NCBI RefSeq assembly: GCF_964355755.1 | Contig: NC_092670.1 | Coordinates: 31,298,388-31,362,387 of the forward strand | From: Antedon mediterranea | Lineage: Eukaryota > Animalia > Echinodermata | Direction: 5' to 3' | Length of the DNA stretch: 64,000 nt | In this document: in pieces, positions 1-61,100 of the stretch | Layout of the letters: each line of letters starts with the position of its first letter | Position numbering within the stretch: the stretch's first letter is position 1 | Position numbers and translations under genes: made by a program | The notes under the pieces: model-generated | What the model was told of the DNA's origin: nothing | Databases searched by the model: none | Seen by the model: the letters and a program-made list of their open reading frames with translations, nothing else

Positions 1-4
1 CAGA

Positions 5-1401
5 ATGAATGCCTATAAACCAACAGTTGGTTTCACTCATTCCAAAGGAAAATCCACAGAATGCAACGTACCTTCTGAAAAAGTAAAGGATGACTACACA
101 AAGGAACCAACAGAGGCACGTAAAAGTAATGAAATAGATTTCACTCGGAAGCTAATCAAATCAGATCAGCAGCAGATGATTTCCCCATATTTTAAGTTTC
201 CAGTGCACAAAATATCGAGAGAAAATTTAGATTGTGATTACATTCAACTTCTTGATAAAAGCTCAGCTGATACTTTGTATAAACAATGTGAGGAAGAGAT
301 TGATTATTTTACAGGTGATCTTGCAAAGGTGAAAGTGTTTGGTAGATGGTTTAATATACCTAGAAAACAGGTTAGTTTCTCTTTATTTTTCTTCATGGTT
401 TCATGACGTTAATGTAGGCTACATACTATTACGTTTAAAAAGATGCATTTTTACATTTTAATTACAGGCCTACCGCACTGTTTTCGTTTTATGCAACAGA
501 ATAACAGTTAACCAGGCCTACCGCACTGTTTTCGTTTTATGCAACAGAATATTAACAGTTAACCAGAATCCAACTGATCATATAATTGTATATACATAAG
601 AGAAACATTTTTAATAGTATGTTTCAACTCTGACAGGTTTCTTATGGTGATATGGGTTTAACATACAAATATTCAGGCAATATAGTGCCAGCCTTGCCAT
701 GGCCACCGTTCCTGAAAGATCTTCGAGATTATTTGAAAGAAGTCACAGGGTTCTACTTCAATTTTGTTTTGGTTAACAGGTACATATTTATTATATATAT
801 GTTTATATTTGTTATAATTAAATAATGCAAAGCTTTCTTATGGCTACATTGTTTTAACATTGATAATGATTTATTCTCAATTTTACTCTCAAGATTGTAT
901 AATTGAACAATATCAGTAAATCAGTCTTTTCGTCAACTATTAGAATCTCTCACTTTTTAACCGCACAAAACTATGTTTAATTATGTTGTACGGTTTATTG
1001 TTTTTATGCTAAAAAGTTAAGTGCAAAATGGATATTTATGTAAATATTTTCTAGCTTTAAATTACAGTACAATTTTTTATTTTAATTTATGTTTCTTTAT
1101 TAGATATGCAGACGGTAATGATTCTATTGGTGAACATAAAGACGATGAGAAAGATATCAACAAATTTAGTTCAATCGCGTCCATTTCATTAGGTCAAACA
1201 CGAATGTTTAGATTTCGCCATGGGGCTACACGCGGAAAGAGACACAAAAGAAGTATTGAACCAGTAAATGTTGATCTTAAACATGGTAGCTTACTAATGA
1301 TGAATTATCCAACTAACGAGTATTGGTACCATTCACTGCCTAAAAAACCATCCATCAAACTACCAAGAATAAATCTTACATTTAGAGATATTAAAAGATG
1401 A
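5..1401 (+). CDS. ALKBH2: DNA oxidative demethylase ALKBH2 (AlkB family Fe/2OG dioxygenase), left-arm copy, ~268 aa
   Basis: Exons 5-370, 637-779 and 1104-1401 with GT-AG introns join in frame. Motifs match ALKBH2: VKVFGRWFNIPRKQ, SYGDMGLTYKYSG, FNFVLVNRY, IGEHKDDE (HxD), HGSLLMM..PTN..WYHSLP, RINLTFR. A further 5' exon outside the window cannot be excluded. Confidence 0.93.
467..565. repeat. ~48-bp tandem duplication in ALKBH2 intron 1 (mirrored at ~10759-10857)
   Basis: caggcctaccgcactgttttcgttttatgcaacagaata..acagttaacca occurs twice. Confidence 0.85.
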
Positions 1402-1763
1402 GAAAGGTAAGGATTACTTTAGAACGCAAATCTTATTAACAACAATTCATGAACAATTGTTCTAAAATGTAATAGTTATTACATGTATCTGTGTGGTTTC
1501 CTATACATTATTATTGGCGGCTGTCAAAACTATTTTTAACAATTCGTTTCTTGTTAACTGTAGTTGTAGACTGTAGTTGTAGACTGTAGTTGTATCTTCC
1601 TTTTTTTTTTTATTGAATTTAAATATTTTATTATTGTGTTTGACTTAATTTTATGTTTTTAACAACGAAAATGAAACTTTTTTTCTTTGCGGTTATTTAA
1701 GTATTTGAATTAGTATTTTATTTTCATTTGTGTGAGTGAGGAAAATGGAAGCATAGATTTATC

Positions 1764-2948
1764 AAATTTAAATACAATTTCTTTATTTCAAAATGAATTT
1801 CATTTTCTACGTGTTTTCAATTTTAAATCTTTTAAGAAAGACACAATACGTACTGCTAAATAAAAACGCACACAAAAGAAAACAAATTTGAGAGGCACGA
1901 TATGTAACGACGCTTTCATTACAACATTTTTGATGTAGCGATTTCTTCAAGTGGTATTGTCATGAACGTATTGAAAAGAAATTAGTTTTATTGTCAATGA
2001 TTTGTCAAGTGTTTTATTTTAATTTCAATTACTGTTGTATTGTATTTAGTTTTACCCGTTCATGTTGGAATGATCAATATTTGCTCAAACTCCATTTTAT
2101 CGTTATGTTTGTAGTATTTTAGAGATTTCCGATCATCGTAATAATGATATAACTAGAATTCGTAACCGTGTGTTAGATTCCATGCGTATTATGACATATG
2201 CCTTCTCTCGTTATTCACCCGATGTATTTTGATCAAAAAATTGTACCTGAGCATGAAAGGTTAGTTGTTATGGTACAAGGAATCGGCCCGGAAAATAATT
2301 TGTTTTTTTTTCTGTTAAATAATTATTATATGTTTGTGAAGTGTATTGCAATAGATTTGTTTAATGAAATAAAATAATTATGTTTTGACTTAATATATGT
2401 CAGTGTAAATTTGTAAGAATACGGTAGTTTTCCTATTTTAATTCATCATAAATTTATTTCTTGACTTTATTTTTTTTCTCTTTTCTGTTAAAGGTTTATT
2501 ATTATTTTGTTTTGTAAAGTGTATTACAATATAATGTGTATGAAATACATTTTGTTTTTAACATCAACAACAAAAATGAAATTTGATCTTTGCGTGTTGT
2601 TTAACTCGTGTATGAAGTTTATGAATTTGTTAAATGTAATTGCAAACATACATAATAAATGATTGTGATTAAAAATATTCTGTTTACTTTATTTTTATTT
2701 TAAACAGTAGTATTTTTAACAGTAGTTATATTTTATATATAATAAGTAATATTAGAAAAATAAACATACAAAATGTATAAAGTATAGACTTATTAAATTT
2801 AATTACAATTTCTTTATTTCAAAATGAATTTCATTTTCTACGTGTTTTCAATTTTAAATCTTTTAAGAAAGACACAATACGTACTGCTAAAAAAACGCAC
2901 ACAAAAGAAAACAAATTTGAGACGCACGATATGTAACGACACTTTCAA
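1764..2948. repeat. ~155-bp direct repeat (1764-1918 and 2795-2948), mirrored in the right arm
   Basis: acaatttctttatttcaaaatgaatttc...gcacgatatgtaacgac is present twice, about 1.03 kb apart. Confidence 0.85.
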
Positions 2949-3424
2949 TAAGAAGGCATATTATAAATGTATTTTTTACCAAATTTATAAAGTAAATGGT
3001 TATTATTGAGAAATATACATTTTAGATAAATGATAACACATCTAAAATTAATTAGAGAGATCAATACATTATGGTGTTCATAATAATTTGTTTTGATGAC
3101 TAGAGGAAACATCTGAAGACATTCAACGAAAAACAAGCGTTAACACCATACCAGTCACTAAGAATGCTACTACTCTGAAAAAAAAAACCATCTCCCTTCC
3201 TACACAGAAACAAATTCTGTACGAAAATAAAAAATTAAAAAATTAAAATAATTAGTAAACAAAATACACGCATTATAAATAAAATGAATAATTTAAGAAT
3301 ATTTGTTAAACTATCCACGAACAAAAAAACGAAACATACTAACCGATTCATCGTCATTACGAAGTTCAAATAACGAAAACTTTTCCTTGAAAAATCCACA
3401 GGAGACACATTTTACATTTTCTAA

Positions 3425-3700
3425 CTACAATTCAGTGTCACATTGTGTCGCAACACATGTACATACAACGAGACCTGTCACAAGTCTGCCGACATTTATT
3501 TTTCTATCGCTCATCATTTGTTCTAATACATAATACAACGCTTCTGAAGAAATATCTTTACACAATTCTAACACATTAAAATTGTTTTCCAACTCTTTAC
3601 AAGCACGAATAGTACTCTGGAGGATGGGTGAATCCAAAACAACTAACCCCGTCAATTTATATTCAATGTATGCTAAAACTAATTCCTCTAAATCAACCAT
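3425..3700 (-). pseudogene. Compact intronless Bcl-2-family-like ORF (BH4/BH3/BH1-like), stop after BH1; left copy
   Basis: LEELVLAYIEYKL resembles BH4 (NRELVVDFLSYKL). IRACKELENNF is BH3-like. VLEQMMSDRKINVGRLVTGLVV resembles BH1 (VVEELFRDGVNWGRIVAF). The frame stays open for 37 codons after the TAG. Confidence 0.6.
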
Positions 3701-4380
3701 AACGCTCGACAAAACAAATGATAATGGATGTAATTACCAAGAAAGTTACAACTTAAAACCTTTATTTTTGTTTTTAAAAAGAAGTTGTAACATAGAAACT
3801 AATTTTGTCAGGAAATGTGTTTTTATTATTTATGTGATTTATTTGTGTTTAGAAGGTTACAACATTAACATTTAATTTGGTCAAAAAATGTGAATATACG
3901 GAGCCGATTGTAATTTTTAATCCTTAGTATAGTGAGAGATTTTATAAACAAAAAAGAGCGAACGCAAATTAATGATTGCAGATTAGACATATAGAAATGG
4001 ATTGAAATTGGAAATCTACATGATCAAAGAAAAGAAAGCCATTGTTCCGACAGAAGCTAATGACATTTACAAAGGAGGACACAGTTTGAATAGAGTAATT
4101 ACCGTATAACATAATTAAATTTTGTCAAGATAGTTGTCAAAAATAAATAAAATATATTATACTGAATTTACTTTGTACATTTATTTAATTTAGACCGTAA
4201 TTAGGTTTGTTGTTCATTTATAATTGTGAAAAAAAAAAATACATACTAATAAAACAGCTATATAAAAAGTTTTTTTTTTTAAATAATGATTCAGTGTTAT
4301 AATTTTATTTACCTGTCATTATGTTAATAAACCATATTCTAAATTTAATTTATATCATGTTAGATATATTTTCAAGGACC

Positions 4381-5080
4381 TTTGTTACATAAAAATAAAT
4401 TTGTAAAGAAATTTGTTACATAAGATAAATTTTGTTAAGAAGTTTGTTTCATAAACATATTTGTGTAGATAAATTTGTTACATAAAAATAATTTTGTAAA
4501 GAAATTCGTTACATAAATTTATTTTTTACAAGAAGTTTGTAACAGAAAATTATTTTGCAAAGAATTAGTTGCATCAATTGATTTTATCAAACGTATGTAA
4601 CATAAAAAATTATGTTGTTGAAAAAAAAAAAAACATTTTGTAATTCAGTCCATTTGCTCAGTAGTTTGTTTAAGTTGTTAAGTCTTGTTTGTGTAATATT
4701 CTTGTAAATAAAAGAATTCATTTTTAACCTTTGTAATTATTTTGTAAATATCATTTATGCATTTTTTTTTTTGGTAAATAATTGAATTTATTTATACTTT
4801 TTGTATGGAAATAATTATACTAATTTTAAATATCATTATTTGTTTATAAATTTAATTGTGATTTTAGATTTCTTCTTTATTTAGTATGTCGATTAATTTC
4901 AGATTCAGAAACATGTTACACAAGAAACAAAAATCGTCATGAAATTCGTTACATAAAAAATAATTTATCAAGAATCTTTTTTAACATAAATTTAATTTTA
5001 TCATTAAATTTGTTATAAAATTTATTTTGTCATTAAATTTGTTACATAAAAAAATAATTGTTTCATGATTCTTGTTACAA
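4381..5080. repeat. Degenerate ~31-bp tandem repeats with GTTACATAA core (4381-4615 and 4940-5080; mirrored ~6255-6957)
   Basis: tttGTTACATAAaaataaatttgtaaagaaa-like units; perfect core at 4384, 4415, 4477, 4508, 4948 and 5041. Confidence 0.75.
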
Positions 5081-5472
5081 TTTTTCCTTTTGTTCAACTA
5101 CTTACATGAAAATTCAAGTTAAGAACGCAATGACAATAGTTGGGCGTTTAGTGTGATTAGCGGACCGCTTTCCTCCGGTAAATCGGTATTTGTTAACAAT
5201 CTTTTAGAGAATAATTACTTTGACAAGTCGTTTGATGATATGATATAGTGTTATGGCAAATATCAAACTTAGTTTACGGAACTAATTACTGCAACATATG
5301 ACATAAGTTTTACGAAGGGTATACTTATACATTGGATGTTTTCGATGTTAGTAAAAAACACAATAGTGAATAACTAGTTGTTTATTTACACATTCACTGC
5401 TATAATTACAATTAGAAGGTCATAAAGGGTAAATCGGTATTCTTTAAAGAATTAGGCCTATAAATATTTAAA

Positions 5473-5625
5473 TTGTCGAGTTACTTGACGTTAGAGAAGT
5501 AAATGTTGTTTGTGTTTACATGTGTGTCATAGTAGATAACGAATTATAAAACCATTACATTGTCGAGTTTCTTGACGTTAGAGAAGTAAATGCTGTTTGT
5601 GTTTACATGCATGTAATAGTAGAGT
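5473..5625. repeat. ~87-bp tandem repeat next to the palindrome centre
   Basis: ttgtcgagtt.cttgacgttagagaagtaaatg.tgtttgtgtttacatg occurs twice; a third unit start (ttgtcga) lies inside the spacer. Confidence 0.8.
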
Positions 5626-7636
5626 TTGTAATTACGGTTTTTTTTTTTTCAATATAAATGTATTATATGTTGTCGATAGTTGTGTAAAAAAAAAAAACCG
5701 TAATTACAAACTCTACTATTACATGCATGTAAACACAAACAGCATTTACTTCTCTAACGTCAAGAAACTCGACAATGTAATGGTTTTATAATTCGTTATC
5801 TACTATGACACACATGTAAACACAAACAACATTTACTTCTCTAACGTCAAGTAACTCGACAATTTAAATATTTATAGGCCTAATTCTTTAAAGAATACCG
5901 ATTTACCCTTTATGACCTTCTAACTGTAATTATAGCAGTGAATGTGTAAATAAACAACTAGTTATTCACTATTGTGTTTTTTACTAACATCGAAAACATC
6001 CAATGTATAAGTATACCCTTCGTAAAACTTATGTCATATGTTGCAGTAATTAGTTCCGTAAACTAAGTTTGATATTTGCCATAACACTATATCATATCAT
6101 CAAACGACTTGTCAAAGTAATTATTCTCTAAAAGATTGTTAACAAATACCGATTTACCGGAGGAAAGCGGTCCGCTAATCACACTAAACGCCCAACTATT
6201 GTCATTGCGTTCTTAACTTGAATTTTCATGTAAGTAGTTGAACAAAAGGAAAAATTGTAACAAGAATCATGAAACAATTATTTTTTTATGTAACAAATTT
6301 AATGACAAAATAAATTTTATAACAAATTTAATGATAAAATTAAATTTATGTTAAAAAAGATTCTTGATAAATTATTTTTTATGTAACGAATTTCATGACG
6401 ATTTTTGTTTCTTGTGTAACATGTTTCTGAATCTGAAATTAATCGACATACTAAATAAAGAAGAAATCTAAAATCACAATTAAATTTATAAACAAATAAT
6501 GATATTTAAAATTAGTATAATTATTTCCATACAAAAAGTATAAATAAATTCAATTATTTACCAAAAAAAAAAATGCATAAATGATATTTACAAAATAATT
6601 ACAAAGGTTAAAAATGAATTCTTTTATTTACAAGAATATTACACAAACAAGACTTAACAACTTAAACAAACTACTGAGCAAATGGACTGAATTACAAAAT
6701 GTTTTTTTTTTTTTCAACAACATAATTTTTTATGTTACATACGTTTGATAAAATCAATTGATGCAACTAATTCTTTGCAAAATAATTTTCTGTTACAAAC
6801 TTCTTGTAAAAAATAAATTTATGTAACGAATTTCTTTACAAAATTATTTTTATGTAACAAATTTATCTACACAAATATGTTTATGAAACAAACTTCTTAA
6901 CAAAATTTATCTTATGTAACAAATTTCTTTACAAATTTATTTTTATGTAACAAAGGTCCTTGAAAATATATCTAACATGATATAAATTAAATTTAGAATA
7001 TGGTTTATTAACATAATGACAGGTAAATAAAATTATAACACTGAATCATTATTTAAAAAAAAAAAACTTTTTATATAGCTGTTTTATTAGTATGTATTTT
7101 TTTTTTTTCACAATTATAAATGACCAACAAACCTAATTACGGTCTAAATTAAATAAATGTACAAAGTAAATTCAGTATAATATATTTTATTTATTTTTGA
7201 CAACTATCTTGACAAAATTTAATTATGTTATACGGTAATTACTCTATTCAAACTGTGTCCTCCTTTGTAAATGTCATTAGCTTCTGTCGGAACAATGGCT
7301 TTCTTTTCTTTGATCATGTAGATTTCCAATTTCAATCCATTTCTATATGTCTAATCTGCAATCATTAATTTGCGTTCGCTCTTTTTTGTTTATAAAATCT
7401 CTCACTATACTAAGGATTAAAAATTACAATCGGCTCCGTATATTCACATTTTTTGACCAAATTAAATGTTAATGTTGTAACCTTCTAAACACAAATAAAT
7501 CACATAAATAATAAAAACACATTTCCTGACAAAATTAGTTTCTATGTTACAACTTCTTTTTAAAAACAAAAATAAAGGTTTTAAGTTGTAACTTTCTTGG
7601 TAATTACATCCATTATCATTTGTTCTGTCGAGCGTT

Positions 7637-7912
7637 ATGGTTGATTTAGAGGAATTAGTTTTAGCATACATTGAATATAAATTGACGGGGTTAGTTGTTT
7701 TGGATTCACCCATCCTCCAGAGTACTATTTGTGCTTGTAAAGAGTTGGAAAACAATTTTAATGTGTTAGAATTGTGTAAAGATATTTCTTCGGAAGCGTT
7801 GTATTATGTATTAGAACAAATGATGAGCGATAGAAAAATAAATGTCGGCAGACTTGTGACAGGTCTCGTTGTATGTACATGTGTTGCGACACAATGTGAC
7901 ACTGAATTGTAG
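7637..7912 (+). pseudogene. Compact intronless Bcl-2-family-like ORF; right copy
   Basis: Mirror of 3425-3700, with one Arg->Cys change and a synonymous change. Confidence 0.6.
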
Positions 7913-9922
7913 TTAGAAAATGTAAAATGTGTCTCCTGTGGATTTTTCAAGGAAAAGTTTTCGTTATTTGAACTTCGTAATGACGATGAATCGGTTAGTA
8001 TGTTTCGTTTTTTTGTTCGTGGATAGTTTAACAAATATTCTTAAATTATTCATTTTATTTATAATGCGTGTATTTCGTTTACTAATTATTTTAATTTTTT
8101 AATTTTTTATTTTCGTACAGAATTTGTTTCTGTGTAGGAAGGGAGATGGTTTTTTTTTTCAGAGTAGTAGCATTCTTAGTGACTGGTATGGTGTTAACGC
8201 TTGTTTTTCGTTGAATGTCTTCAGATGTTTCCTCTAGTCATCAAAACAAATTATTATGAACACCATAATGTATTGATCTCTCTAATTAATTTTAGATGTG
8301 TTATCATTTATCTAAAATGTATATTTCTCAATAATAACCATTTACTTTATAAATTTGGTAAAAAATACATTTATAATATGCCTTCTTATTGAAAGTGTCG
8401 TTACATATCGTGCGTCTCAAATTTGTTTTCTTTTGTGTGCGTTTTTTTAGCAGTACGTATTGTGTCTTTCTTAAAAGATTTAAAATTGAAAACACGTAGA
8501 AAATGAAATTCATTTTGAAATAAAGAAATTGTAATTAAATTTAATAAGTCTATACTTTATACATTTTGTATGTTTATTTTTCTAATATTACTTATTATAT
8601 ATAAAATATAACTACTGTTAAAAATACTACTGTTTAAAATAAAAATAAAGTAAACAGAATATTTTTAATCACAATCATTTATTATGTATGTTTGCAATTA
8701 CATTTAACAAATTCATAAACTTCATACACGAGTTAAACAACACGCAAAGATCAAATTTCATTTTTGTTGTTGATGTTAAAAACAAAATGTATTTCATACA
8801 CATTATATTGTAATACACTTTACAAAACAAAATAATAATAAACCTTTAACAGAAAAGAGAAAAAAAATAAAGTCAAGAAATAAATTTATGATGAATTAAA
8901 ATAGGAAAACTACCGTATTCTTACAAATTTACACTGACATATATTAAGTCAAAACATAATTATTTTATTTCATTAAACAAATCTATTGCAATACACTTCA
9001 CAAACATATAATAATTATTTAACAGAAAAGAAAAAAAATTATTTTCCGGGCCGATTCCTTGTACCATAACAACTAACCTTTCATGCTCAGGTACAATTTT
9101 TTGATCAAAATACATCGGGTGAATAACGAGAGAAGGCATATGTCATAATATGCATGGAATCTAACACACGGTTACGAATTCTAGTTATATCATTATTACG
9201 ATGATCGGAAATCTCTAAAATACTACAAACATAACGATAAAATGGAGTTTGAGCAAATATTGATCATTCCAACATGAACGGGTAAAACTAAATACAAAAC
9301 AACAGTAATTGAAATTAAAATAAAACACTTGACAAATCATTGACAATAAAACTAATTTCTTTTCAATACGTTCATGACAATACCACTTGAAGAAATCGCT
9401 ACATCAAAAATGTTGTAATGAAAGCGTCGTTACATATCGTGCCTCTCAAATTTGTTTTCTTTTGTGTGCGTTTTTATTTAGCAGTACGTATTGTGTCTTT
9501 CTTAAAAGATTTAAAATTGAAAACACGTAGAAAATGAAATTCATTTTGAAATAAAGAAATTGTATTTAAATTTGATAAATCTATGCTTCCATTTTCCTCA
9601 ATCACACAAATAAAAATAAAATACTAATTCAAATACTTAAATAACCGCAAAGAAAAAAAGTTTCATTTTCGTTGTTAAAAACATAAAATTAAGTCAAACA
9701 CAATAATAAAATATTTAAATTCAATAAAAAAAAAAAGGAAGATACAACTACAGTCTACAACTACAGTTAACAAGAAACGAATTGTTAAAAATAGTTTTGA
9801 CAGCCGCCAATAATAATGTATAGGAAACCACACAGATACATGTAATAACTATTACATTTTAGAACAATTGTTCATGAATTGTTGTTAATAAGATTTGCGT
9901 TCTAAAGTAATCCTTACCTTTC

Positions 9923-11319
9923 TCATCTTTTAATATCTCTAAATGTAAGATTTATTCTTGGTAGTTTGATGGATGGTTTTTTAGGCAGTGAATGGTACCA
10001 ATACTCGTTAGTTGGATAATTCATCATTAGTAAGCTACCATGTTTAAGATCAACATTTACTGGTTCAATACTTCTTTTGTGTCTCTTTCCGCGTGTAGCC
10101 CCATGGCGAAATCTAAACATTCGTGTTTGACCTAATGAAATGGACGCGATTGAACTAAATTTGTTGATATCTTTCTCATCGTCTTTATGTTCACCAATAG
10201 AATCATTACCGTCTGCATATCTAATAAAGAAACATAAATTAAAATAAAAAATTGTACTGTAATTTAAAGCTAGAAAATATTTACATAAATATCCATTTTG
10301 CACTTAACTTTTTAGCATAAAAACAATAAACCGTACAACATAATTAAACATAGTTTTGTGCGGTTAAAAAGTGAGAGATTCTAATAGTTGACGAAAAGAC
10401 TGATTTACTGATATTGTTCAATTATACAATCTTGAGAGTAAAATTGAGAATAAATCATTATCAATGTTAAAACAATGTAGCCATAAGAAAGCTTTGCATT
10501 ATTTAATTATAACAAATATAAACATATATATAATAAATATGTACCTGTTAACCAAAACAAAATTGAAGTAGAACCCTGTGACTTCTTTCAAATAATCTCG
10601 AAGATCTTTCAGGAACGGTGGCCATGGCAAGGCTGGCACTATATTGCCTGAATATTTGTATGTTAAACCCATATCACCACAAGAAACCTGTCAGAGTTGA
10701 AACATACTATTAAAAATGTTTCTCTTATGTATATACAATTATATGATCAGTTGGATTCTGGTTAACTGTTAATATTCTGTTGCATAAAACGAAAACAGTG
10801 CGGTAGGCCTGGTTAACTGTTATTCTGTTGCATAAAACGAAAACAGTGCGGTAGGCCTGTAATTAAAATGTAAAAATGCATCTTTTTAAACGTAATAGTA
10901 TGTAGCCTACATTAACGTCATGAAACCATGAAGAAAAATAAAGAGAAACTAACCTGTTTTCTAGGTATATTAAACCATCTACCAAACACTTTCACCTTTG
11001 CAAGATCACCTGTAAAATAATCAATCTCTTCCTCACATTGTTTATACAAAGTATCAGCTGAGCTTTTATCAAGAAGTTGAATGTAATCACAATCTAAATT
11101 TTCTCTCGATATTTTGTGCACTGGAAACTTAAAATATGGGGAAATCATCTGCTGCTGATCTGATTTGATTAGCTTCCGAGTGAAATCTATTTCATTACTT
11201 TTACGTGCCTCTGTTGGTTCCTTTGTGTAGTCATCCTTTACCTTTTCAGAAGGTACGTTGCATTCTGTGGATTTTCCTTTGGAATGAGTGAAACCAACTG
11301 TTGGTTTATAGGCATTCAT
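9923..11319 (-). CDS. ALKBH2: ALKBH2, right-arm copy (Tyr->Cys in SYGD relative to the left copy)
   Basis: Exons 11319-10954, 10687-10545 and 10220-9923 are the reverse complement of the left copy. TAT>TGT change at 10680. Confidence 0.92.
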
Positions 11320-12022
11320 TCTGGTAGAGATCTACTGAAATGTCTATTTTGACTACAACCTTATACACAGAATATTGTATATAAAATAATTTATGCATGA
11401 TGTCAGTAGCGTCCCTCTTTACCCACTTTTTGTTTTATTTTAAAAAGAAACAAAGAAATCTTTTCGTAAACGTAGCCAATTTAAATGAAAATAAAACTAA
11501 ACATTGGAAAACAAAAATCATGAAAAATAGTGAAACTAACATCATGACGTCACACATTAAACTTTAGTATGTCAAACACCCCGTGTCACTGCTTTCGATT
11601 TATACCCTTTGTTAACAAATCCGGAAGATGGTTAATTACCTGTCGGTATAGTTCAATCAAGACATACTTATTATTTAACTTCATTCATTCTTATCTTTTT
11701 GTTTTAGTCATTGTTATAATATCCGGATCAAATAACTTATGTCTTTGGATTATGTCGGCATACATCAAGCAAAAACCTCAATTAACTAGTTTTAATTAAC
11801 CAGGTGCATCTTTATTGACTCTGACTAATTCAAATCTTACAAAAACTATATTGTCTCACTTCCTTACCCTATGTTAACCATTGTATTATAATCCGAAACA
11901 TAACACCTATTGACTTCAACCATTGTAAACCATTTTGTTCTCATCACAAGCAACTAAATTACCATATCATTTTTTATTTAATATTTATTAATTTTATATT
12001 ATAATGTATATTAATATATAAC

Positions 12023-12396
12023 AAATCTATATAACAATTCTAGTGAAATGATATACTCTATTGTCTTATACTATCCCCATTGTTAACCATTGTTATAACC
12101 ACGACTGACTATCCGTGTAACGATCATCTATATCACTGCCTGGAACAACAACAGTATCCTCACATTAGAAACACCTGGCGGATATTACGTAATCAGGAAA
12201 TAAAATTAATAAATATTAAATCTATATAACAATTCTAGTGAAATGATATACTCTATTGTCTTATACTATCCCCATTGTTAACCATTGTTATAACCGCGAC
12301 TGACTATCCGTGTAACGATCATCTATATCACTGCCTGGAACAACAACAGTATCCTCACATTAGAAACACCTGTCGGATATTACGTAATCAGGAAAT
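12023..12396. repeat. ~195-bp near-identical tandem duplication
   Basis: aaatctatataacaattctagtg...atattacgtaatcaggaaata at 12023 and 12218. Confidence 0.9.
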
Positions 12397-12846
12397 ACCT
12401 CAAGGTTAACTTTGGGCTGAAGTACCTTTCTTTCTACTAATGTTCGTAAAAATTGTCAAATTTAACATTTTTGAAAAATTGAGACGTCTATTATTTCTAA
12501 AATTGATTCATTTCTTTGTGAAATAATAGATGAAATGTTTTCATTGAATAAACTATTCCACATATTATAACCACAACCGAAATTATCCAGAACAGTTTTT
12601 GCCATTTTCCGCCCACGATCTTTGAGTTTGGTCGCATATATTTGGTAATCTATTATTTTCCATTTTATTTATTTTATCCAATACTTTATCATTCTCAATA
12701 TTTGATAGTAATTAATTGGAATTATATACCTGTTTGTTACGCGAATATTATGGTAAACTTGCACTGTTGTTTTATATATTATTTGCTCACGACAGTTTAA
12801 TATCGGTGAACGATAAAAACTACTAATCGTATTTGTTTGTACTTAC

Positions 12847-22012: not shown

Positions 22013-22480
22013 ATGGAACGCCTCCTCTGCCTTCAGTTCACATTTATCATGCAGTACACACCAATGGTAATGCAGTACACACCAATCGTCATGCAGTACA
22101 CACCAATGGTAATGCAGTACACACCAATCGTCATGCAGCACACACCAATCGTCATGCATTACACACCAAACGTCATGCAGTACACACCAAACATCATGCA
22201 GTACACACCAATCGTCATGCAGTACACACCAAACATCATGCAGTACACACCAATGGTCATGCAGTCGTGCATGCAGTACACACCAATGGTCATGCAGTAC
22301 ACACCAATGGTCATGCAGTACACACCAATCGTCATGCATGACCATTGGTGTGTACTGCATGATGTTTGGTGTGTACTGCATGACGATTGGTGTGTACTGC
22401 ATGACCATTGGCATGTACTGCATGAAGATTGGTGTGTACTGCATGATAAATGTCAACTGAAGGCAGAGGAGGCGTTCCAT
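22013..22480. mobile_element. Foldback-type non-autonomous DNA transposon with opposed 21-bp tandem repeats
   Basis: TIR atggaacgcctcctctgccttcagtt. TSD AACACGCT at 22005-22012 and 22481-22488 (a 6-bp reading is also possible). Empty site in copy A (~13685-13695). (catgcagtacacaccaatggt)n flips orientation at ~22336. Confidence 0.9.
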
Positions 22481-28700: not shown

Positions 28701-31700
28701 TAAAATTTTTAGGCATGATGACGTTATAAAAATTAAAATATTTTATCTCATGCTAAAGAAAGTTGATTGACCTAGACAATATATAAATGTAGGAGAAAAA
28801 GGAATACTGTTAAGCGTGATGCGCTCCATTGAATGTGATGAGCAATAACGAAAGAGACAAAAATCCTATATTTTACATTCGTGTGGCCATACGATGACGT
28901 CAAAATGGTTTTTTTAGCCTTATCGATGCATGATCCGATATCTACAACTCATCAACTTCTAGATTTTGTAATAAAAATAAACGGTTCACGGTTTACTTTA
29001 GAAACTATGACTGTTTTAAAAAAGACATTATTTTGACGATTTTTAAAGCTTTTTCATAAAAAACGCGCACGAAATGTCTAATTCAACGTGTTCGTGTGGC
29101 GTTATTTAAACTGGAAAAGGTCTAAATTGTTTTTAAAATTACTAGGAAAGGCTTGAAAAATAAAATTCAAGAGAAAAAAATATGTTTTTAACGCTACGTG
29201 CGCACCGCGCTCGTAAAAAATTGCGCGCCCGTGGGAATTTTTGACATGCTCAAAATGACAAGAAACGCAAAAGTTGATTAGAAATTAATTTTGCGCATTT
29301 TGAAATTTTAAATGCGCGTGCGCGCGTAACTTCTTGTGAAACATGCCATTTTTAATCCGTAGAAAGTTTGCCCCTGATATGACTTAAATTTTGTCAAAGT
29401 GTTAATACAAAATAACTTATAACCTATGATCAATCAATGAAATTCATAAAATCGCGCGTAACTTACGCTGCGCGACTCTAGCGTCATATAACGAAGTTTC
29501 TTGCACATCTACAGCTACAGGTCAATCTTTTGACAAAGTTATACAATCTTATGTTCACAAGTAATAGGGGATATGCTGGTCACAAAAATCCGGGAAAGAA
29601 AGAAGAATAACAAAGAAGATGAAAAAGATATTTACAATCACAAGGGTTATCCGCAACTTTACAAGTTGCGGTAACCAACAACTTTACAAGTTGCGGTAAC
29701 CAACAATATTGATCTCATACAATAACAAGGAGTTATCCGCTCTACCAAGCGGATAACTAATTAGGCATACTTTGTGCATATTGGATATGACGAAATTTTA
29801 AAAACAATGATAGTCCTATACTTATTTTTTCGACAAATTTCACTTAAAATAATAATTATGTGATTTTTATCAAGACGTCTCAACTTAAAAAATAAATGCC
29901 ATATCAGTGTCTTATCGGCTTACAGGGACATTTGTTATTTTTATTTTAAAATTGGAGAAATATACGGTACCAGAAAGGTGGTTTATACTTACACATCCTT
30001 CTCCACACTCTGATATGTTAGCACTATTAACCGCCCAGTAAAGAAAGAATGCAAATATCCAAAATGGCAACAGAATAATAGTCACAATTGAAAACACGAA
30101 AGCAGTTATTTTCTGAAAAGAACAAAATTAATATACACAAAAATAGCATCTTGGTCGGAATTAATGCTGTACCATTGTCGCCAATTAATTTGGTCTATTT
30201 ATAAACACAAAGTAGGCATAGAACAACAATAATATCCATGTCAGTGACAGTAAAATTCAAACCATTCATTATTATTTATTTACACGTGTTATCAATTAAT
30301 AGAATAATACATGTATTACTACCAAATATTTCAGTTTTAACAGTACTACTGAATCATTGCGATAGTCAGTTAGACTCTATCTAGTGACAGCTGCAGGGGA
30401 ATCGGGTGCATATTATTCATTATTTAATAGACTATTCCAGATTTTAGAAAAATGAAATTCTGTAGGCATTTCGTGTTAAAAGCGAATAAACATGTGCTTT
30501 AGGGTAATTTTCAGATCAGATTTCCTGTTTACCCGGCTCAATTTTTAGATCTTCACCCTTAAAATGGGAAAAACAAAATGGCCCCCATTTTAGACGACTT
30601 ATTTTGGCTTATAACTTAGTTAATAGTAAAAACTGGTGTCTATACCTATGTTTGTGATAGTGAAGATTCCAAATATATTGTTATTAAAGTTGCAAATATT
30701 CTATTTCAGCCGCCATGTTAAAAATTACCCTAAAACACATGTTTATTCGCTTTTAACACGAAGTGCCTACAGCATGTTATTAGAGTGGAAATATGACTAT
30801 TAGGACTAGCCTAACTTGTATAATGAACATTTTACTTTGAAGTTTAACACAGATATAAATATGTACAACACAATCCTAAAAAAAACATTCAATCGAGAAC
30901 CATAGTATACGCTGTTTTAATTTGAGATTTATTATACTGTATTAATCAACAATTAATACATTATCAACGAAAAAACAGATTTATAATCGAAAGAAAATGA
31001 ATGATTATGACACGTGTACTTATTCTTTCTTTCTTTTATTTCATTAAACAATGGCCTCCCGGCGGCCCATTTCATATAATAAAATCTATATTATTTTCGG
31101 TCACACAGGATTTTCTTTTTTTTAAATCTTAATCGATCACAAAACATATATATTCTATTCTAATTTTTAAATGTCGCCCCTTTTCAATCAACAGATTATG
31201 AAAAGATAATCTAAAGCATGATATAAATGTTCTATACTTAACAACTTAATCTAAAGCATGATATAAATGTTCTATACTTAACAACTTAAATCGTAAACAT
31301 AAGGTTCGTAAAGATTGTCAAGTTTAATATTTTTGTAAAAATTGAAACGTATATTATTGCTAAAACTGTTTCATTTCTTTGTGAAATAATAGATGAAATG
31401 TTTCATTAAATAAACTATTCCACTAACCACAACCGAAATTATCCAGAACACCCAACAGTTTTGGCCATTTTTCGCCAAGATGTTTGTGTTTGGTCGTCGC
31501 ATATATTTGGTAATTTATTATTTTCCATTTTATTTATTTTATCCAATACTTGATCATTCTCAATATTTGATAGTAATTAATTGGAATTTATACCTAGTTT
31601 TTTACGCGCATATTATGGTCAACTTGCACTGTTGTTTTATATATTATTTACCCACGACAGTTTCATATCGATGAACTATAAACACTAATAATCGTATTTG

Positions 31701-49680: not shown

Positions 49681-61100
<11,420 letters not shown>

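What the first reader, a model, noticed from the sequence alone, without database searches (positions are those of the whole stretch)
3311..3700. Intronless, virus-style mini Bcl-2 homolog inside the palindrome
Seen: a 91-aa ORF with BH4-like (ELVLAYIEYKL), BH3-like and BH1-like (INVGRLV, versus canonical NWGR) segments. It has almost no BH4-BH3 loop and no intron. A TAG follows BH1, then 37 more open codons (LENVKCVSCGFFKEKFSLFELRNDDESVSMFRFFVRG). Both arms share the stop. Established: loop-less, divergent, intronless Bcl-2 folds are typical of large dsDNA viruses. Inference: the AT-rich 1.5-5.6 kb block may be a remnant of an endogenous virus or Polinton-like element carrying an apoptosis inhibitor, or a retrocopy.
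Basis: partly seen in the sequence, partly recalled or inferred. Interest (0 to 1): 0.7.

Follow-up and report, generated by a model that had tools for sequence, protein, structure and literature searches.

The report
Palindromic Maverick's broken mini Bcl-2 gene
A small intron-free gene that likely encodes a virus-style cell-death blocker is broken by a stop codon in this copy but open in related copies, and it sits beside an intact DNA-repair gene inside a mirror-image DNA segment that is likely a helper-dependent descendant of a virus-like Maverick transposon in a feather star genome.

Summary
The 91-codon frame, its stop, the 37 further codons and the mirror copy are all there. Bcl-2 kinship is likely, but only weak signals support it. 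These are Pfam PF00452 (E 5e-4, under the curated cut-off), fowlpox FPV039 as top PDB sequence hit, and Bcl-2 folds as the top seven matches of one low-confidence model. A second, shorter model did not repeat the fold result. In 4 of 4 sequencing runs laid, that codon is not a stop (98-100% of depth), so this copy is a pseudogene of a multi-copy family. The unit is likely a palindrome of about 13.5 kb. It has a Maverick-like right end at 12438 that interrupts a host repeat, a broken packaging-ATPase trace near the centre, an intact spliced ALKBH2 gene in each arm, and no detected polymerase, integrase or capsid gene. The host is likely the crinoid Antedon. Bcl-2 cargo in adintoviruses (Mavericks) is already published. 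This scan has noted palindromic Mavericks with Bcl-2 or IAP cargo in other genomes. The ALKBH2 cargo and the crinoid host appear new. The left end, target-site duplication, expression and function are untested.

The parts
3425..3700 (-). mini Bcl-2-like ORF, 91 aa (predicted helices 1-5), ended by a premature stop in this copy
3311..3424 (-). 37 open codons after the stop (likely helix 6 region), then a second stop
   Evidence: Pfam match extends to residue 97; related copies have no stop at the break
3235..3411 (-). overlapping open frame whose end is strongly hydrophobic; possible membrane anchor in some family copies (uncertain)
   Evidence: best 19-residue hydropathy 2.84, highest of 147 stop-free segments in the block, but 14 of 147 reach 2.0; copies vary in length just before it (table 4)
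7637..8026 (+). mirror copy of the mini Bcl-2 gene with the same stop
   Evidence: PF00452 E 6.7e-4
5..1401 (+). intact spliced ALKBH2-like DNA demethylase gene, exons 5-370, 637-779, 1104-1401, 268 aa; likely cargo
9923..11319 (-). mirror copy of the ALKBH2-like gene
   Evidence: two 268-aa proteins in one cluster, each on a contig of the same length
5123..5332 (+). broken P-loop ATPase trace (Walker A), likely an A32-type packaging ATPase, pointing at the palindrome centre
6003..6212 (-). mirror copy of the ATPase trace
   Evidence: arm symmetry
5650..5685 (.). 36-nt unpaired centre of the palindrome, flanked by T and A runs
4381..4564 (.). 31-bp tandem repeat array (mirror at 6728-6954)
11324..12438 (.). 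likely outer part of the right arm, no detected coding, with a 195-bp tandem duplication at 12010-12397; ends in TCTACT (AGTAGA read inwards)
12439..12444 (+). candidate 6-bp target-site duplication AATGTT (partner predicted about 1.1 kb before the window start)
   Evidence: present once at the empty paralogous site 20170 and as AAGGTT at 31301; partner not visible

Best explanation
The frame is a broken copy of a likely anti-apoptotic mini Bcl-2 gene, carried in both arms of a palindrome that is likely a non-autonomous Maverick/Polinton element of about 13.5 kb, moved by the enzymes of an intact helper element elsewhere. Inferred mechanism: a parent element (end repeat, captured ALKBH2, mini Bcl-2, packaging ATPase) was copied from one end, and the polymerase turned back near 5668, just past the ATPase start. 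That gave a snap-back molecule with two identical ends, which a helper's integrase inserted into a host tandem repeat. In full-length family copies the protein would bind BH3 helices of host Bax/Bak-type proteins and keep the cell alive during amplification. This copy would make a product lacking helix 6, likely non-functional. Both arms share the stop and differ by only 14 substitutions, so the stop likely predates the insertion, or was spread by arm-to-arm conversion. If it predates the insertion, the gene was not needed in cis for this copy to move.
For: Shown: ORF, stop and mirror. Bcl-2 signals: PF00452 E 5e-4; FPV039 top of 3 PDB hits, E 0.3, aligned across BH1; Atlas ranks 2, 3, 6 and 14 carry Bcl-2 families, scores 0.80-0.87; ranks 1-7 of 48,161 chains are Bcl-2 folds, Z 4.7-5.6, rmsd 3.9-4.6, 71-91 aligned; BH4 pattern of PMC3847314 met. 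Stop absent in 4 of 4 runs: 16456 of 16748, 47.2 of 47.2, 4085.7 of 4085.7 and 29.6 of 29.6 depth. Many allelic contigs per run, diverged paralogue pieces, and single contigs at depth 7277 and 3891. ATPase trace: Atlas 0.92 to A32-like and Preplasmiviricota clusters; 0 of 1000 resamples gave the hh.GPxxxGKS pattern. Right end: a host tandem unit present three times breaks off at 12438 in one copy only, and the end matches the published (AGT)2 motif in 5 of 6 bases. A 5-of-6 match to either published end motif occurs at 0.7% of positions. Bcl2 cargo is reported in adintoviruses.
Against: Pfam score is 21 bits against a cut-off of 31.4. Both models are low confidence (pLDDT 37 and 49). The 91-aa model put transporters and MazG proteins first, and only one Bcl-2 fold (F1L, rank 37, Z 3.5) among 50 rows. 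No Foldseek hit reached E 0.001, and the viral library showed no named Bcl-2 among 37 rows. The strict BH3 pattern is not met, and there is no in-frame membrane anchor (best hydropathy 0.42 in residues 93-129). Of 17 other differences between this copy and the runs, 6 are silent, 10 change the residue and 1 is a stop in a minor contig, against 20% silent expected: no clear sign of purifying selection. The ATPase pattern was written after seeing the sequence, Atlas recognition was below its 2300 benchmark, and no relative was found. Depth is about 47 in two of the four runs, and the tool warns that depth is no copy number.
Confidence: 0.68

Rival explanations
1. A local inverted duplication of host DNA copied an ordinary ALKBH2 paralogue together with an old neighbouring Maverick fragment (Bcl-2 plus ATPase trace). 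The palindrome is then not itself mobile, and the end at 12438 belongs to an unrelated insertion.
For: Only two proteins of this ALKBH2 type are annotated, although the Bcl-2 region looks multi-copy. The gene keeps introns and a host-like N-terminus. The left end is not visible.
Against: No other copy or coding trace of a different element in 11324-12438. The end motif is Maverick-like. The window ALKBH2 is a third lineage, weakly sister (80/79) to a young 13-member multi-contig clade rather than to the presumed host gene.
Confidence: 0.17
2. The Bcl-2-like gene came from another virus or mobile class (poxvirus-like, adenovirus-like, foldback transposon), or is an old, highly diverged retrocopy of a host gene.
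For: Top sequence and fold hits are poxviral, and the first Atlas cluster is mostly eukaryotic and Nucleocytoviricota with no common Pfam family. A32-like ATPases also occur in giant viruses. A foldback element was noted in this genome.
Against: Those hits are weak and reflect which structures are solved. The end motif and size fit Mavericks. No host parent was found at E<=0.001.
Confidence: 0.08
3. The palindrome is an assembly artefact (two haplotypes or a read fold-back joined head to head), while the single arm is real.
For: Arms are 99.3% alike. No read spanning the centre was examined.
Against: The centre is an asymmetric 36-nt spacer, and the arms differ by 14 substitutions and 3 indels, so it is not a single-molecule fold-back. 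This does not affect the gene or the right end.
Confidence: 0.04
4. The frame is not a Bcl-2 homologue but a chance helical ORF.
For: 63 of 1000 resamples give an ORF this long. No single test is decisive, and the second model missed the fold.
Against: Pfam, PDB sequence search, Atlas and one fold search all point at the same family. These partly share the same sequence signal. Related copies keep the frame open at the break.
Confidence: 0.03

Closest known systems
Bcl2 accessory genes of adintoviruses (animal Mavericks/Polintons), Starrett et al. 2021, PMC8502044 (passages and text of Supplementary Fig. S2 read)
   Same: Bcl-2-like gene in an element with a packaging ATPase; maps include sea-urchin elements
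   Different: Here no polB, integrase, protease or capsid gene was detected, the element is a full palindrome, the gene is broken, and a spliced ALKBH2 rides along. Sequence similarity to those Bcl2 proteins could not be tested.
Vertebrate Mavericks, Barreat and Katzourakis 2021, PMC8097293 (passages read)
   Same: End motif 5 of 6 bases like (AGT)2//(ACT)2; candidate 6-bp target duplication; most copies are mutationally degraded
   Different: Intact ones have seven or eight core ORFs; this one shows only an ATPase trace
Compact viral Bcl-2 proteins: fowlpox FPV039 (5tzp), canarypox CNP058 (5wos), vaccinia A49 and N1L; review PMC3847314 (passages read)
   Same: Short, without long inter-helical loops, degenerate BH motifs; N1L fits the fold in 115 residues without a membrane anchor
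   Different: Only weak similarity (E 0.3; Z 5.1-5.6). Some of these (A52, B14) act on NF-kB and not on apoptosis, so the fold does not fix the function.
Palindromic non-autonomous Mavericks noted by this scan in other genomes (e1-7803354, e1-7804837, e1-7883520, e1-7884490; unreviewed AI notes)
   Same: 11.6-22.7 kb mirror-image elements with Maverick ends and a cargo gene (Bcl-2, IAP, LRR) in each arm
   Different: No shared sequence found; ALKBH2 cargo is not among them
Snap-back defective genomes of AAV, PMC8235507 (search listing and start of abstract only)
   Same: One end plus the start of a gene copied back into a mirror-image genome that needs a helper
   Different: Different virus and replication; an analogy for the mechanism only

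Membership tests
Bcl-2 family | Pfam PF00452 at the curated cut-off (31.4 bits) | tested here: not met
   20-21 bits, E 1e-3 to 5e-4; the only family hit
Bcl-2 family | BH4 pattern aliphatic-aliphatic-X-X-aromatic-aliphatic (PMC3847314) | tested here: met
   LVLAYI at residues 7-12, in predicted helix 1; a short pattern, weak on its own
Bcl-2 family | BH3 pattern L-x-x-x-[GAS]-D (PMC3847314) | tested here: not met
   IRACKE in helix 2; the aligned FPV039 stretch also lacks it
Bcl-2 family | BH1 NWGR | tested here: inconclusive
   KINVGRLV aligns with FPV039 KINWGRII; G and R kept, W replaced; no difference listed at that codon in the four runs
Bcl-2 family | BH2 motif | tested here: inconclusive
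   not recognisable by eye; Pfam match ends at residue 97
Bcl-2 family | helical bundle fold | tested here: inconclusive
   129-aa model: six helices, top 7 matches Bcl-2 at Z 4.7-5.6; 91-aa model: not repeated; both low confidence
Bcl-2 family | binds BH3 helices or blocks apoptosis | not testable with these tools
   needs bench assay
Autonomous Maverick/Polinton | protein-primed polB, integrase, protease and capsid genes | tested here: not met
   no Pfam hit in 12 read-through frames of 1402-3203 and 3702-5671 or 6 frames of 11324-12438; hence filed as a non-autonomous derivative, not a member
Autonomous Maverick/Polinton | A32/FtsK-type packaging ATPase | tested here: inconclusive
   broken Walker-A trace; Atlas 0.92; weak Pfam P-loop hits including Adeno_IVa2 and FtsK, E 0.02-0.3; no relative retrieved
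Autonomous Maverick/Polinton | terminal inverted repeats ending (AGT)2//(ACT)2 or (AG)3//(CT)3 | tested here: inconclusive
   right end matches 5 of 6 bases at an insertion junction; left end outside the window
Autonomous Maverick/Polinton | 6-bp target-site duplication | not testable with these tools
   left flank is outside the window and no genome is held
Retrocopy of a host Bcl-2 gene | close similarity to a spliced parent gene | tested here: not met
   0 hits at E<=0.001 in 1.84 billion representatives; 0 of 4 candidates scored

The most novel reading that the evidence does not exclude
Crinoids host families of snap-back, helper-dependent Mavericks that have dropped all replication genes and keep a doubled survival kit: a mini Bcl-2 against cell death and a captured, still spliced ALKBH2 repair enzyme. 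A sister family carries a PC4-AlkB fusion (13 near-identical proteins on 7 contigs). The Bcl-2 family is shared at about 96-99% identity by three differently coded organisms, so it may travel between hosts as packaged defective genomes.
Probability: 0.25. Interest if true: 0.7.

Novelty: new variant of a known kind. Interest (0 to 1): 0.45.

Why it matters
It adds a crinoid case to a pattern that my searches of the held library did not find in print: mirror-image, gene-poor Mavericks that keep only anti-death cargo. It also adds a DNA-repair gene as likely cargo (one search listed 3 papers with both words, none on this by title or abstract start). If right, some annotated ALKBH2 paralogues of this genome are mobile-element cargo rather than host genes, and a multi-copy Bcl-2-like family is missing from the annotation. 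The window copy itself is a pseudogene, and Bcl-2 cargo in Mavericks is published, which limits the surprise.

Tried and rejected
No whole genome is held, so copies could not be counted and the left end could not be seen. No homologue of the Bcl-2 frame was found: (0 of 4 candidates, 70-226 aa only), (11 pattern matches, 0 confirmed; 255 matches, 0 confirmed). PHROGs and NCBIfam gave nothing relevant. Foldseek had no hit at E<=0.001; Bcl-2 proteins were frequent among the weak PDB rows. The Walker-A motif scan of viral contigs gave 48 loci that look like MutS-, clamp-loader- and kinase-type P-loops by eye; 0 of 48 matched the window downstream of the motif (best E 0.15). The ATPase trace found no protein relative (0 of 15 candidates, 0 of 26) and only generic P-loop hits in the PDB. 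PC4-AlkB had no relative in viral contigs. No RNA holder was listed; this is no evidence on expression. Only 4 of 14 listed runs were laid, and only on 3290-4125, so ALKBH2, the centre and the end were not examined in reads. A poxvirus-like hairpin end was considered from the tandem repeats and centre (recalled) and set aside, because the end motif and ATPase fit Mavericks better. Short frames at 2074-2377, 3100-3246 and 3987-4109 gave no usable hit. Slides S1 of PMC8502044 had no reader, and its protein compilations were not reached in the stored part; they may hold the closest Bcl2 relatives. No paper held crinoid, endogenous, virus and Bcl-2 together.

Full report
Observation. The frame is as described: ATG at 3700 on the minus strand, 91 codons, TAG, 37 more codons, TAG. 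It is mirrored at 7637-8026 with the same stop. The palindrome spans window 1-11323 at 99.3% identity around a 36-nt unpaired centre; by my count of the printed differences, the arms differ by 14 substitutions and 3 indels. ORF length alone is unremarkable: 63 of 1000 resamples of the AT-rich block match it.

Is it Bcl-2? Likely, on several weak signals that partly share one sequence signal. PF00452 is the only Pfam hit, E 1e-3 for 91 aa and 5e-4 with X at the stop, but 21 bits against a cut-off of 31.4. Twelve other read-through frames of the block gave a best E of 0.58. The top of 3 PDB sequence hits is fowlpox FPV039, E 0.3, aligning KINVGRLV with KINWGRII. Four of five listed Atlas rows carry Bcl-2 families, all under 0.9 and so leads only. 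A single-sequence model of 129 residues (pLDDT 37) has six helices, and its seven best matches among 48,161 chains are Bcl-2 folds, Z 4.7-5.6. Against: the 91-residue model (pLDDT 49) ranked transporters and MazG proteins first, with one Bcl-2 fold at rank 37. No Foldseek search reached E 0.001. By the motif definitions in PMC3847314 (passages), BH4 is met and strict BH3 is not. That review also states that viral Bcl-2 proteins are compact and lack long loops, that N1L needs only 115 residues, and that some such folds act on NF-kB instead.

Host. The neighbouring spliced gene's last exon is 100% identical to an annotated ALKBH2-like protein of Antedon mediterranea. Its cluster has two 268-aa members, each on a contig of the same length, as expected for the two arms. 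The host is therefore likely this feather star. The Bcl-2 frame matched nothing among 1.84 billion representatives or in the word-indexed search, so it is unlikely to be an exon of an annotated gene or a recent retrocopy.

The stop is private to this copy. Fourteen runs were listed, 12 holding part of the stretch. I laid 4 of them (three coded organisms, four studies) on 3290-4125. All 30 bins are covered in all four. At the break codon the runs read a different letter, which gives a sense codon, in 16456 of 16748, 47.2 of 47.2, 4085.7 of 4085.7 and 29.6 of 29.6 summed depth. Longer contigs are about 96-99% identical to the window. Runs X1 and X6 show many allelic contigs and single contigs at depth 7277 and 3891, X5 and X8 show about 47, and pieces under 90% alike point to older paralogues. 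The tool warns that depth is no copy number and that contigs drop rare variants, so 'multi-copy family' is an inference. Selection was not shown: of 17 other listed differences in the frame, 6 are silent, 10 change the residue and 1 is a stop in a minor contig, against 20% silent expected. Copies also vary in length near the end of the frame (table 4), next to an overlapping frame with the most hydrophobic window of 147 segments. Whether family members have a membrane anchor is open; this copy has none in frame.

The element. A frame at 5123-5248 holds a Walker-A motif. The Atlas places it at 0.92 with A32-like packaging ATPase and Preplasmiviricota clusters, with recognition below its benchmark. 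Pfam gives weak P-loop hits. A plain Walker A appears in 27 of 1000 resamples, and the tighter pattern, written after the fact, in 0 of 1000. The following residues resemble Maverick ATPases as I recall them, but I could not test that: no relative was retrieved. No polymerase, integrase, protease or capsid trace was found in 18 read-through frames. To the right, a host tandem unit occurs three times. Units 2 and 3 match each other upstream of the shared point (78% over 562 columns), but unit 1 matches only from 12438 on. The sequence ending there reads AGTAGA inwards and is followed by AATGTT, which stands once at the empty site 20170. Vertebrate Mavericks end in (AGT)2 or (AG)3 with 6-bp duplications (PMC8097293, passages), and a 5-of-6 match occurs at 0.7% of positions. 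By symmetry the left end would lie about 1,115 bases before the window, giving about 13.5 kb. That is a prediction; no genome is held.

ALKBH2 as cargo. It lies inside both arms with an intact frame and two introns. In a tree of 23 catalytic domains (P0039 and the other hits were left out), it forms its own lineage. That lineage is weakly sister (80/79) to a young clade of 13 near-identical Antedon proteins on 7 contigs, at least two with PC4 domains, and lies apart from the presumed host gene P0004/P0038. Cargo status is inferred; a local duplication remains the main rival.

Mechanism. Shown: anatomy, stop, its absence elsewhere, and the junction. Inferred: copy-back from one end of a parent Maverick, which cut the ATPase gene; integration by a helper; an anti-apoptotic role for full-length copies; loss of function here. 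Because both young arms share the stop, it likely predates insertion, unless the arms were homogenised later.

Known context. Starrett et al. 2021 (PMC8502044; passages and text of Fig. S2) report Bcl2 and IAP homologues in adintoviruses, so the cargo type is known. A 2026 preprint (10.1101/2025.02.07.637071, passages) reports polintons with gene-containing end repeats, cargo and horizontal transfer, with no occurrence of 'palindrom'. Listings showed no paper on fully palindromic non-autonomous Mavericks or on AlkB or PC4 cargo; the library lacks most subscription papers. Earlier notes of this scan describe such palindromes in other genomes. They prompted my search for the end and are not independent evidence.

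Verdict. A real gene remnant, likely Bcl-2-like, in a likely non-autonomous palindromic Maverick with ALKBH2 cargo. New variant of a known kind; interest 0.45.

Noticed in passing
proteins P0003, P0005, P0006, P0027-P0036: Thirteen near-identical Antedon ALKBH2-like proteins on 7 contigs; PC4 domains are shown for P0003 and P0006. Several have neighbouring or duplicate accessions, as if in pairs. Possibly cargo of a second mobile or palindromic family.
   Followed up: partly
window:12438-32511: A degenerate host tandem unit of roughly 8-11 kb in three copies, 78-93% alike; it supplies the two empty sites.
   Followed up: partly
window:33877-36594: Broken LINE-type retrotransposon on the minus strand: endonuclease-like and reverse-transcriptase-like frames, named by eye.
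   Followed up: no
window:1749-1921 and 2780-2950: A 173-bp direct repeat (95%) inside each arm, 1031 bases apart.
   Followed up: no
window:5468-5623: A 69-bp direct repeat with 87-bp spacing right beside the palindrome centre; could mark the template-switch site.
   Followed up: no
window:3987-4109: A 40-codon plus-strand frame with a faint DUF6974 hit (E 0.05); possibly another decayed gene.
   Followed up: partly
window:37700-38035 and 56110-56418: Exons that look like pseudouridine-5'-phosphate glycosidase and TTC38 host genes (recalled, not tested).
   Followed up: no
runs X1, X5, X6, X8 on window:3290-4125: Three differently coded organisms share the family at about 96-99% identity, with depth differing more than a hundredfold between runs. 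Close kin, mixed samples or host switching cannot be told apart.
   Followed up: no
window:23668-23771 and 22046-22447: A near-perfect 104-bp palindrome and a short-period inverted repeat array.
   Followed up: no
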